This document shows positions 3,735 to 5,635 of a stretch of 64,000 bases of DNA, in pieces. This DNA comes from an uncultured OM43 clade bacterium. Lineage in GTDB: Bacteria; Pseudomonadota; Gammaproteobacteria; Burkholderiales; Methylophilaceae. The translations under genes were made by a program, and so were the position numbers. The stretch spans positions 5,884-69,883 of the forward strand of contig CACEEB010000001.1 in NCBI GenBank assembly GCA_902558495.1, given 5' to 3'. The first letter of the stretch is position 1. Every line of letters starts with the position of its first letter. The notes beneath the pieces were generated by a model that ran no database searches, was not told the origin of the DNA, and worked only from the letters and a program-made list of their open reading frames with translations.

Positions 3735-3860
3735 TCTTATTTTAGGGAAATCTTTTCTCAATCTGTTTTTTTAAATTCTTTGTCTTCGCTTTTATGACGG
3801 GAGCGAAAAAATTCTTTATATCATCATAAAATTCACCTTCGATTATTTTGAGATCTGTTC

Positions 3861-3889
3861 TTGTAATGCGAATGATTCTCATTTACAAT
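3861..3889 (+). promoter_or_regulatory. sigma70-type promoter (TTGTAA-17-TACAAT) overlapped by a Fur-type box (3865-3883)
   Basis: AATGCGAAT-G-ATTCTCATT is a 9-1-9 inverted repeat with one mismatch, resembling the proteobacterial Fur consensus. It spans the 17-bp spacer between -35 (3861-3866) and -10 (3884-3889). Confidence 0.8.
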
Positions 3890-3916
3890 TAGAAAAAATT
3901 GTAATTAAGGAAAAAA

Positions 3917-4396
3917 ATGAACAACGTAAGTAATCAAGCGAAAAAATTTCTTGCAGAATCGGTATCCTCCTTCGGACTTGAAAGTTCGGAAATGATGGTT
4001 GTTTGGTCACTAAGACATTTTACAGATTGCATTTCATCCAATGAGAACCCAAGAGATTTGTTTTCTTTATGCACAGAGCAACACAATCTACCTGATATTA
4101 CTTTTATATTCGAAGAAATAACCTTTGCGATAAAAGTTGGTGCAACAGAAAAAGGGGTGATTGGAGGAGAATTCTGTAATCATCTTCATTACGGAGAGTA
4201 TAAGACATTAGCAGCATTGTATTTTTTGCAAAATGATAATTATGCGAGTGCTAGAGAATTATTCTCATCCTGGCTCAAACCAGAGGAATCAAGGATTGTT
4301 TATAAATTAATGATTTCTTTATCAATTATCCTTGAAAAAGCAGATCTACTTATTCCACCAAGAAAAGAATTTCAATCTGTGTGGAGACCTCACTAA
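3917..4396 (+). CDS. hypothetical protein, first gene behind the Fur-type box
   Basis: 159-aa ORF with an AAGGA SD. No recognisable catalytic motif; contains a CxHxH cluster (FCNHLHYGE). Confidence 0.8.
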   Translation: MNNVSNQAKKFLAESVSSFGLESSEMMVVWSLRHFTDCISSNENPRDLFSLCTEQHNLPDITFIFEEITFAIKVGATEKGVIGGEFCNHLHYGEYKTLAALYFLQNDNYASARELFSSWLKPEESRIVYKLMISLSIILEKADLLIPPRKEFQSVWRPH

Positions 4397-4415
4397 ATTA
4401 ATTAAAGGAAAAAGA

Positions 4416-5042
4416 ATGGCTAATAGTAGTGTAAGGAAAAAACCAAAAAATAAATTATCTAGACAAATGGGCGAAAATATTTGGGGTCGTGAAAATTGCC
4501 CAACAGCAAACCGTGTTTATGGTCCTGGTCAACATGGACCAAAAGGAAATAGAAGAAGAAGTGATTATGGTGTTCAACTTCGAGAAAAACAAAAACTAAA
4601 AGGTTATTACGGCAATATCGGAGAAAAGCAGTTCAGAAATATTTTTAAAGAGGCTTTTGCTAAAAAAGGTGATACGAGTGAAAACCTTTTAATATTATTG
4701 GAATCACGACTTGATGCGATAGTTTACCGATCAAATTTTGTTGCTACTGTTTTTGCTGCAAGGCAATTTATCAATCATAAGCATGTAAGAGTAAATGGGA
4801 CAATAGTCAATATCCCGTCCTATCGTTGTAAGCCAGGAGATATTGTTGATATAAAAGAAAAAAGTAGGAACCTTGGCTTTGTAATTGAATCTACTACTAA
4901 ATTGGAAAGAGATGTGCCTGAATATCTCAATCTTGACTTAAAAACCTTTAGTACGACTTACACCAGGTTTCCTTCATCGGATGAAATACCTTATGCAACT
5001 ATTATGAGTCCTAAGGATGTTGTGGAATTCTACAGTCGCTAA
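4416..5042 (+). CDS. rpsD: 30S ribosomal protein S4, stand-alone alphaproteobacterial-type form lacking the four-Cys motif
   Basis: YGPGQHG, SDYGVQLREKQKLKGYYG, LESRLDAIVYR, AARQFINHKHVRVNG and the C-terminal VEFYSR. True start is ATG 4416 after AAAGGA (the ORF track start at 4332 is too long). Confidence 0.95.
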   Translation: MANSSVRKKPKNKLSRQMGENIWGRENCPTANRVYGPGQHGPKGNRRRSDYGVQLREKQKLKGYYGNIGEKQFRNIFKEAFAKKGDTSENLLILLESRLDAIVYRSNFVATVFAARQFINHKHVRVNGTIVNIPSYRCKPGDIVDIKEKSRNLGFVIESTTKLERDVPEYLNLDLKTFSTTYTRFPSSDEIPYATIMSPKDVVEFYSR

Positions 5043-5064
5043 TTAAAATATTAAAAGGAAAATT

Positions 5065-5511
5065 ATGAAAAGTATTAAGTTATATGCAATGTTATTTTTA
5101 TTAGCATTTTATGGGAACGCAATTTCAGCTGATCATGTAGTCAAAATGTTAAATGGAGCACCTCCTAACATGTTTGTATTTGATCCTCCTGTTATAAAGA
5201 TAGCAGTTGGAGACACTGTCACATGGGATGGTGATGCAATGCATAATTCTGTATCTATTGAAACTATGCTTCCAGCGGGAGCAAAACCATGGTCTGGAAA
5301 ACTCACTATGAAACCAGGCGAGAAGTCCATTACTGTGAAGTTTGATGTAGAGGGTGTGTACGGATATAATTGCACGCCACACGCCATGCTTGGTATGGTT
5401 GGAATAGTAGTAGTAGGTGATCCATCCTCTAATTTAGATGCAGCAAAAAAGGCGGTCGAAACTCAAGCTGGTGGAAAAGAAAGATTCATGAAATATTTGT
5501 CTGAAATTTAA
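5065..5511 (+). CDS. pseudoazurin-like blue copper protein with signal peptide
   Basis: Signal peptide followed by HVVKMLN, FDPPVIKIAVGDTVTW and HNS. Type-1 Cu ligand loop YNCTPHAMLGM. Confidence 0.9.
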   Translation: MKSIKLYAMLFLLAFYGNAISADHVVKMLNGAPPNMFVFDPPVIKIAVGDTVTWDGDAMHNSVSIETMLPAGAKPWSGKLTMKPGEKSITVKFDVEGVYGYNCTPHAMLGMVGIVVVGDPSSNLDAAKKAVETQAGGKERFMKYLSEI

Positions 5512-5524
5512 GATAAGTATAATC

Positions 5525-5556
5525 AAAAAAAAGGACTCTAATTAGAGTCCTTTTTT
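5525..5556. terminator. bidirectional intrinsic terminator
   Basis: A8-GGACTCTAA/TTAGAGTCC-T6, between the convergent pseudoazurin and tRNA-Asn genes. Confidence 0.9.
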
Positions 5557-5559
5557 ATT

Positions 5560-5635
5560 TGGCTCCCCAACCTGGGCTCGAACCAGGGACACATGGATTA
5601 ACAGTCCATTGCTCTACCGACTGAGCTATTGGGGA
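5560..5635 (-). tRNA. tRNA-Asn (GTT)
   Basis: Reverse complement is TCCCCAATAGCTCAGTCGGTAGAGCAATGGACT-GTT-AATCCATGTGTCCCTGGTTCGAGCCCAGGTTGGGGAGCCA, 76 nt with encoded CCA. Confidence 0.97.

What the first reader, a model, noticed from the sequence alone, without database searches (positions are those of the whole stretch)
3861..5556. Candidate iron-sparing operon: Fur box + unknown protein + metal-free ribosomal S4 + pseudoazurin
Seen: a self-contained unit made of a sigma70 promoter, a near-perfect 19-bp Fur-type palindrome (AATGCGAATGATTCTCATT) covering the -35/-10 spacer, three co-oriented genes separated by about 20 nt, and a strong terminator, at the 3' side of tRNA-Asn. Established: Fur boxes in this position repress under iron sufficiency. 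Cu proteins can replace heme c carriers. S4 exists as four-Cys (C+) and Cys-less (C-) forms, alternative C- ribosomal proteins are normally controlled by Zur (zinc), and the C+ S4 site has been modelled with a [4Fe-4S] cluster in Thermus ribosome structures. The box here resembles Fur, not the Zur consensus (TGTTA-N-TAACA core). Inference: under iron starvation the cell swaps an Fe-binding S4 for a metal-free one and a cytochrome c for a cupredoxin, which would be iron-regulated ribosome remodelling. I do not know of this being described.
Basis: partly seen in the sequence, partly recalled or inferred. Interest (0 to 1): 0.92.

Follow-up and report, generated by a model that had tools for sequence, protein, structure and literature searches.

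The report
Iron-sparing ribosomal S4 operon, marine methylotroph
A small marine methanol-eating bacterium keeps a foreign spare copy of the essential ribosomal protein S4, lacking the four-cysteine metal site, in a three-gene cassette behind the same DNA motif that precedes its iron-uptake genes, so it likely builds iron-free ribosomes when iron runs short, an iron version of a trick so far described only for zinc.

Summary
The anatomy is real. A 19-bp palindrome (3865-3883) lies across a sigma70-like promoter. It precedes an unknown 159-aa gene, a second S4 without the four-Cys site, and a pseudoazurin.

The box is best read as a Fur site. It recurs before FTR1, FeoA, ferritin-like and porin genes. 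Each of 40 genus genomes with a match has one Fur-family gene, and this genome's copy is Fur, not Zur. The box precedes the cassette in 67 of 67 metagenomic copies.

This assembly lacks the alpha operon, but 11 of 13 cassette carriers also hold a four-Cys S4 whose cysteines align with the Thermus [4Fe-4S] ligands. A separately acquired Cys-poor S4 lineage in other Betaproteobacteria also carries such boxes (14 of 25 loci), whereas five sole-copy cases have none.

Iron-starvation induction is strongly inferred. An Fe-S cluster in the resident S4 and its replacement in ribosomes are untested. The cytochrome-to-pseudoazurin swap is weaker, because five genomes keep pseudoazurin without box or intact S4. 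I found no description in the papers searched; other reports of this scan reached the same idea in other genomes.

The parts
3785..3807 (+). terminator-like hairpin closing the upstream rlmB-type gene; separates the cassette from the rnr-rlmB genes
3861..3889 (+). sigma70-like promoter, -35 at 3861-3866, -10 at 3884-3889 (predicted)
   Evidence: 9 of 12; the -35-like hexamer directly before the box recurs in relatives
3865..3883 (.). Fur-type 9-1-9 palindrome overlapping the -35 end and filling the spacer
   Evidence: same motif before FTR1, FeoA, ferritin-like, porin O/P and NAD-dependent formate dehydrogenase genes
3917..4396 (+). orf159: all-helical cytoplasmic protein of no known family, conserved W-x-x-R-H and C-x-H-x-H-x-G-E motifs; followed by the second S4 in all 65 metagenomic loci with room
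   Evidence: dN well below dS
4416..5042 (+). accessory ribosomal protein S4 (S4b), C- type without the four-Cys site, alphaproteobacterial-like
   Evidence: dN 0.006-0.05 against dS 0.39-1.7
5065..5511 (+). pseudoazurin-like blue copper protein with a likely signal peptide; ligand positions H60, C103, H106, M111
   Evidence: best solved relatives are all pseudoazurins or one blue copper protein
5527..5556 (.). bidirectional-looking intrinsic terminator shared with tRNA-Asn
5560..5635 (-). tRNA-Asn(GTT), convergent neighbour

Best explanation
This three-gene cassette carries a second S4 without the four-cysteine site behind a Fur-type box and is likely an iron-starvation operon that supplies a metal-free S4 in place of a resident S4 predicted to hold an iron-sulfur cluster. 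Shown: the anatomy; the box and its recurrence before iron-uptake and iron-storage genes; a single Fur-family regulator per genome; a four-Cys alpha-operon S4 in the carriers that have that operon assembled; foreign origin of S4b. Inferred: Fe-loaded Fur blocks the promoter and low iron releases it. The resident S4 binds [4Fe-4S] as Thermus S4 does. Because S4 is a primary assembly protein, S4b would enter newly made 30S subunits rather than exchange on mature ones, saving four Fe per ribosome and uncoupling ribosome assembly from Fe-S supply. Pseudoazurin is probably co-induced here as a copper electron carrier that could relieve a soluble cytochrome c, but this step is weaker. The role of orf159 is open; my guess is an accessory factor of the iron response or of S4b use.
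For: Box conserved in 10 of 11 genus relatives with upstream DNA, tandem in three, and in 67 of 67 metagenomic loci; S4b follows in 65 of 65 and pseudoazurin in 50 of 54 with room. The cassette lies at several different chromosomal sites and keeps the box. Other >=17/18 sites in this genome precede an FTR1/EfeU permease and a porin O/P-FMN_bind-PepSY cluster; in relatives FeoA, a ferritin-like gene, FTR1, porins, and a metal-free NAD formate dehydrogenase in a genome that also has the molybdopterin Fe-S enzyme. One Fur-family match in each of 40 of 42 genomes, none with two; this genome's passes the Fur model (199.6, cut-off 146) and not Zur (31.4, cut-off 167) and sits divergent to bamE. All 34 readable alpha-operon S4s of the genus have four Cys, aligned gap-free with C9/C12/C26/C31 of PDB sequence u302 (taken as Thermus thermophilus from its entry codes, recalled). 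Thermus S4 binds [4Fe-4S] (PMC11791143, PMC10450194, passages). Independent recurrence: a cyanobacterial/myxobacterial-like C- S4 lineage in other Betaproteobacteria, not one clade with S4b (AU p 3.9e-5), has the box within 500 nt in 14 of 25 loci (shuffled mean 0.04) and iron-type neighbours in 18 of 26. In the order survey 6 of 10 accessory copies have the box. Five genomes where the C- gene is the only S4 match have no box before it. No Zur sites were found at S4 paralogues by Chen et al. (PMC3087516, section read).
Against: No experiment on iron response, Fur binding, metal content or ribosome incorporation. Thermus is the only bacterium with a shown S4 Fe-S cluster (PMC11791143); four-Cys S4 is classed as zinc-binding in PMC3087516. 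The resident rpsD of this genome is not assembled. The cassette is in only 13 of 42 genus genomes, 3 of 20 near-complete ones, and was deleted in some, so it is dispensable. G017 has orf159-S4b with no box. 4 of 10 accessory copies in the order survey and 11 of 25 named betaproteobacterial loci lack a >=15/18 site within 500 nt, though several lie in operons with TonB/ExbB, PepSY or ferritin genes. Copy number was checked for only 5 of the 80 loci. TonB receptors also serve zinc and B12. Pseudoazurin is kept without the box in five genomes. Kin are not independent.
Confidence: 0.62

Rival explanations
1. The operon is Fur-controlled, but the resident S4 binds zinc. S4b serves another iron-stress purpose, such as an oxidation- or mismetallation-proof S4, altered decoding accuracy, or an extraribosomal RNA-binding role, and saves no iron.
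For: Four-Cys S4 is classed as zinc-binding (PMC3087516); Fe-S is shown only in Thermus (PMC11791143); rpsD changes alter fidelity and stress resistance (PMC12186496, passages).
Against: Two unrelated C- S4 lineages sit behind Fur-type boxes beside a four-Cys resident, and sole copies lack the box, which is what cofactor sparing predicts; all four Cys match the Thermus ligands.
Confidence: 0.2
2. With no Zur, the single Fur-family protein of these streamlined cells also senses zinc, and the cassette is ordinary zinc sparing run through that regulator.
For: No second Fur-family gene in 40 of 42 genomes; known C- paralogues are zinc-regulated (PMC6103462, PMC11672702, passages).
Against: The other box targets identified are iron genes or an Fe-S-free isoenzyme; no ZnuA, CobW/COG0523, L31 or L36 family among 106 neighbour proteins scanned; the same box precedes the second S4 of Nitrosomonas europaea, which has three Fur homologues (PMC3050691).
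Confidence: 0.09
3. S4b is a passenger or an xenologue on its way to displacing the resident gene; the box serves orf159 or pseudoazurin.
For: Displacement has happened elsewhere (G071, G538: rpsK directly followed by rpoA; Methylobacillus in PMC3087516); the cassette is patchy and decays.
Against: S4b is under strong purifying selection; the box is lost together with S4b while pseudoazurin stays; in G335, G042 and G169 the best box lies 56 to 159 nt before the S4 start, with no orf159 found.
Confidence: 0.07

Closest known systems
Zur-controlled C- ribosomal protein paralogues (L31B/YkgM, L36B/YkgO, S14, S18, L28, L33; PMC6103462, PMC11672702, passages)
   Same: A spare ribosomal protein without the Cys metal site, outside the ribosomal operon, behind a Fur-family repressor box, beside a Cys-rich resident copy.
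   Different: The protein is S4, which is not in the Zur regulon passages read; the box and regulon are Fur/iron type; the genus has no Zur match; the spared cofactor would be Fe-S.
C+/C-(IV) S4 pairs of Nitrosomonas europaea, Myxococcus, Sorangium, Bdellovibrio (Chen, Roberts, Luthey-Schulten 2009, PMC3087516)
   Same: C+ gene in the alpha operon plus a horizontally acquired C-(IV) gene elsewhere; no Zur site.
   Different: That paper frames the pair as zinc/non-zinc and does not contain the word iron. S4b is alphaproteobacterial-like, a separate acquisition from the Nitrosomonas/Methylobacillus lineage.
Thermus thermophilus S4 with a [4Fe-4S] cluster (PMC11791143, PMC10450194)
   Same: The resident S4 of the relatives has the same four Cys at the same positions.
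   Different: No paralogue swap is described; the metal of betaproteobacterial four-Cys S4 is unmeasured.
Iron-sparing substitutions such as flavodoxin for ferredoxin and plastocyanin for cytochrome c6 (recalled)
   Same: An iron-free stand-in induced at low iron; pseudoazurin and the boxed NAD formate dehydrogenase of G063 fit this logic.
   Different: Here the main target would be the ribosome; pseudoazurin is also kept without the box.

Membership tests
Fur regulon member | Fur-type inverted repeat overlapping the promoter | tested here: met
   3865-3883 over -35/spacer; 11 of 14 to the recalled 7-1-7 consensus; conserved
Fur regulon member | Same motif before iron-uptake and storage genes, and a true Fur in the genome | tested here: met
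Fur regulon member | Fe-dependent Fur binding and derepression at low iron | not testable with these tools
   only assembled RNA contigs were available; they cannot give levels
Zur-controlled C- ribosomal paralogue | C- copy beside a C+ resident | tested here: met
   11 of 13 carriers hold both; alpha operon unassembled in G000 and G017
Zur-controlled C- ribosomal paralogue | Zur gene present | tested here: not met
   one Fur-family match per genome in 40 of 42, 20 of 20 near-complete; tested as Fur by NCBIfam for G000 only
Zur-controlled C- ribosomal paralogue | Zur box upstream | tested here: not met
   best match to the E. coli Zur motif of PMC6103462 is 14 of 18 at 3809, a level reached by 2685 sites in this genome
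C-(IV) S4 (Chen 2009) | [quoted passage not shown] | tested here: met
   sequence, TIGR01017 over cut-off, groups with alphaproteobacterial-like S4
C-(IV) S4 (Chen 2009) | Incorporated into ribosomes | not testable with these tools
   purifying selection only
Fe-S-binding S4 (resident copy) | Four Cys at the Thermus ligand positions | tested here: met
   G063 resident aligned with PDB sequence u302
Fe-S-binding S4 (resident copy) | [4Fe-4S] rather than Zn bound in vivo | not testable with these tools
   needs metal analysis
Pseudoazurin | Cupredoxin with His, Cys, His, Met ligands in pseudoazurin spacing | tested here: met
Pseudoazurin | TIGR02375 cut-off | tested here: inconclusive
   104.3 bits against 109.85; best family by a wide margin
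Pseudoazurin | Copper nitrite reductase partner in the genome | tested here: not met
   TIGR02376 in 0 of 5 carriers, 3 of them near-complete

The most novel reading that the evidence does not exclude
Four-cysteine S4 is an iron-sulfur protein well beyond Thermus, and bacteria have repeatedly recruited foreign Cys-poor S4 genes under Fur to build iron-free ribosomes. Streamlined marine methylotrophs did so with their own alphaproteobacterial-type S4, a dedicated unknown partner protein and a copper electron carrier, making the cassette a marker of adaptation to low-iron seawater.
Probability: 0.5. Interest if true: 0.9.

Novelty: new variant of a known kind. Interest (0 to 1): 0.77.

Why it matters
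Ribosome remodelling by metal-free paralogues is established for zinc only. A Fur-boxed spare S4 gives a genetic argument that the four-Cys site of S4 holds iron-sulfur in many bacteria, and it would explain why Chen et al. found no Zur sites at S4 paralogues. This case adds an independent acquisition, a genus with no Zur, and natural deletions. The idea is directly testable in a culturable strain such as Nitrosomonas europaea or Methyloversatilis universalis, which have the C+ gene plus a boxed C- gene. In the ocean it would add the ribosome to the iron budget of abundant heterotrophs.

Tried and rejected
Resident rpsD in this genome: not found, but rpsK is missing too in a 64% complete assembly, so this is not evidence of a sole copy.

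Zur reading: rejected.

orf159 identity: no Pfam/NCBIfam family; 11 hits among 50% representatives, one of them apparently a chimera with an ATP synthase-like start; atlas neighbours unnamed, DUF6628 at 0.88 is a lead only; model pLDDT 82 from 11 rows, no Foldseek match at E<=0.001, best VIA Z 6.4 (rmsd 3.4, 111 aligned), uninformative for a helical protein. No similarity to the ~100-aa leader protein that precedes the other S4 lineage. Complex prediction of orf159 with S4b gave no answer.

Expression: RNA contigs of four studies cover the cassette, one spanning 4128-5468, and scattered pieces cover the FTR1 locus and its neighbours. The runs were chosen for holding the cassette, no silent-stretch or DNA control was laid, and contigs give no levels, so this says nothing on iron response.

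Phage carriage: no relative of S4b found in viral contigs with a single-protein query. NirK partner: none. Class survey: 3 of 399 other genomes have an S4b-like gene at E<=1e-60, two as sole copies without a box, one truncated at a contig end. Two second copies in the order survey (G202, G266) lie in second alpha operons and were set aside before the 6 of 10 count.

Outside Betaproteobacteria 0 of 54 loci reach 15/18 with this motif; a looser recalled motif picks tandem sites in two Nannocystis loci and one Vicinamibacteraceae locus, without clear iron neighbours in 24 proteins scanned.

The careful S4 tree did not finish; supports are SH-aLRT from quick trees. Low-iron biogeography was not attempted. 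Vajrala et al. 2012 (N. europaea iron starvation stimulon) is not held and may report the second rpsD.

Full report
Setting. The window is part of contig C1 of a 64% complete, 35% GC assembly. Near relatives of its second S4 are labelled Methylophilaceae bacterium, genus genomes are 1.2-1.4 Mb when near-complete, and the DNA occurs in marine metagenomes. I infer an OM43-type marine methylotroph.

Observation. The S4 has two cysteines but not the four-Cys site. The third gene is a pseudoazurin with its four copper ligand positions.

Is the S4 a spare? It is the only S4 in this assembly, but rpsK is missing too. Of 36 other genus genomes, 10 had two or more S4 matches, and G063, which has the cassette at the same chromosomal site, has two. 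The alpha-operon copy has CxxC...CxxxxC in 34 of 34 readable genus loci (28, 6; L030 was not read). It aligns without gaps to the four Cys of PDB sequence u302, which I take as Thermus thermophilus S4 from recalled entry codes. orf159 is in 13 of 42 genus genomes; 11 of these hold both S4 forms, and G000 and G017 lack the assembled alpha operon. S4b is under purifying selection. In a quick tree of 98 rows it nests among alphaproteobacterial- and Magnetococcales-like S4s, away from the residents (AU p 0.024 against grouping with them). Most of those neighbours are unnamed, so the donor is not fixed.

Which regulator? The box is present in 10 of 11 relatives with upstream DNA, in tandem in three, although the cassette lies at different chromosomal sites. 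In 69 metagenomic loci it scores >=16/18 in 67 of 67 with upstream DNA; S4b follows in 65 of 65 and pseudoazurin in 50 of 54 with room. These are kin, not independent cases. In this genome four sites score >=17/18 against 0.2 in shuffles: the cassette, an FTR1/EfeU iron permease, a porin O/P followed by FMN-binding and PepSY genes, and a contig end. In five relatives searched, the motif precedes FeoA, a ferritin-like gene, FTR1, porins, a DUF3313 gene, a small unknown ORF and a NAD-dependent formate dehydrogenase. That enzyme is in 1 of 42 genomes, G063, which also has the molybdopterin Fe-S enzyme found in 37 of 42; it looks like a second iron-sparing stand-in. Each of 40 of 42 genomes has exactly one Fur-family match. 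This genome's passes the Fur model and fails the Zur model. A 14 of 18 Zur-motif match at 3809 is background.

Does the link recur independently? Among 400 other genomes of the order, 12 had two S4 matches. Two were second alpha operons and were set aside. Of the other 10, the nine residents read are four-Cys, and 6 accessory copies have a >=15/18 box within 450 nt; G167, G376, G421 and G075 do not. One boxed copy (G335, 18/18 at -56) is near S4b in the tree; the rest belong to a cyanobacterial/myxobacterial-like lineage that cannot be grouped with S4b (AU p 3.9e-5, 33 rows). A scan with that lineage gave 80 loci. Of 26 betaproteobacterial-type loci, 25 had 500 nt upstream and 14 carry the box, Nitrosomonas europaea among them, against 0.04 in shuffles; 0 of 54 other loci do. 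One locus overlaps the order survey. TonB, ExbB, TonB-receptor, FeoA or ferritin families flank 18 of 26, and no zinc-uptake or L31/L36 family appeared (106 of 155 candidate ORFs scanned). Copy number was checked for 5 of the 80: four have two S4 and Methylobacillus glycogenes one. Where the C- gene is the only S4 match (G071, G124, G845, G538, G706) no box precedes it; in G071 and G538 rpsK runs straight into rpoA. A repressor site would be expected to go once the gene became essential.

Results against the full first reading. Cupredoxin matches occur in 19 of 42 genomes, orf159 in 13. G014 has the same site as the window with a deletion from mid-box to about codon 146 of rpsD, leaving a decayed 3' remnant and an intact pseudoazurin; G062 also has a remnant; G022, G029 and G065 have pseudoazurin alone, with no box. 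So box, orf159 and S4b are lost as a unit while pseudoazurin stays. On a host tree the 10 carriers among 34 genomes need 5 changes, consistent with old acquisition and repeated loss or exchange. No cytochrome c gene with a box was found among this genome's >=15/18 sites, and NirK was not found in 5 carriers. The pseudoazurin swap stays a moderate guess, about 0.4. G017 has orf159 and S4b without a box. RNA contigs cover the cassette in four studies but cannot show level or control. orf159 remains unassigned.

Mechanism. Shown: anatomy, box, regulon context, single Fur-family gene, paired S4 forms, foreign origin. Inferred: Fur-Fe represses and low iron releases (about 0.9). Inferred and untested: the resident S4 holds [4Fe-4S] and S4b replaces it in new 30S subunits (about 0.6 jointly). 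S4 nucleates 16S 5' domain assembly (abstract start of PMC10296100 in the listing), so replacement at assembly is more plausible than exchange. By analogy with L31B repressing L31 (PMC11672702, passage), S4b might also lower synthesis of the resident; this is speculation.

Literature. Read as passages: PMC3087516 (plus its regulation section; no Zur sites at S4 paralogues, the word iron absent), PMC11791143 and PMC10450194 (Thermus S4 Fe-S; the former names it the only bacterial case), PMC6103462, PMC11672702 (first 300,000 characters held) and PMC12186496 (C- paralogues tied to Zur and zinc), PMC3050691, PMC11024918, PMC5120137 (passages and a supplement search: one S4 row shown of three places, no azurin). 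Ten full-text searches listed no paper on a Fur- or iron-controlled S4 paralogue; I saw listings only for the rest, one search was swamped by an unrelated term, and subscription journals are mostly missing. Vajrala et al. 2012 was not held and could contain the expression result. Eight earlier AI reports of this scan propose the same idea in other genomes, seen after I had reached it; they are not independent evidence. None covers this stretch or this S4 sequence.

Verdict. A real, conserved, Fur-boxed accessory S4 operon; a new variant of a known kind, with iron in place of zinc. Interest 0.77.

Noticed in passing
L298:1059-2293 (G063:C28): A NAD-dependent, metal-free formate dehydrogenase directly behind the same box, in a genome that also has the molybdopterin Fe-S formate dehydrogenase; found in 1 of 42 genus genomes. 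Possible second iron-sparing swap.
   Followed up: partly
L197:2330-3168 (G014:C10): Deletion from mid-box to rpsD codon ~146 at the window's site. The retained pseudoazurin is nearly identical to the window's (dN 0, dS 0.076) although the region overall is ~80% identical, suggesting recent exchange of this tRNA-adjacent segment.
   Followed up: partly
L103:3673-3987 and equivalents in L092, L097, L101-L109, L116, L121, L124: A ~100-aa unknown helical-looking leader ORF between the box and the accessory S4 of the other betaproteobacterial lineage; not similar to orf159. Many of these, and orf159 and its distant relatives, end in His or Gln.
   Followed up: partly
L059:2077-4977 (G000:C7): Tandem boxes before a porin O/P gene, a weaker site before FMN-binding and PepSY genes: a likely iron-uptake cluster.
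   Followed up: partly
L058:6096-7820 (G000:C4): Box before an FTR1 permease followed by a His-rich lipoprotein-like ORF of no Pfam family.
   Followed up: partly
L060:20-38 (G000:C45): A 17/18 box at a contig end whose target gene is not assembled.
   Followed up: partly
L291:1291-1518 and L295:1502-1729: A small (~60 aa) unknown ORF directly behind a box in G021 and G034.
   Followed up: no
L141:3870-4000, L142, L148:428-715: AT-rich palindromes over the promoter of accessory S4 in Nannocystis (tandem, 75% GC genome) and a Vicinamibacteraceae genome; Nannocystis has a four-Cys resident.
   Followed up: partly
L040:5738-6849 (G017): Divergent orf159-S4b pair with no box and no pseudoazurin; alpha operon unassembled, so sole-copy status is unknown.
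   Followed up: partly
L033:6732-7191 and L221:2501-2977: Frameshifted pseudoazurin in G018 and a stop codon in one metagenomic orf159; decay or sequencing error.
   Followed up: no
L087, L088, L100: In genomes with only the C- S4, the gene still sits just upstream of a boxed TonB-type operon but has no box of its own.
   Followed up: yes
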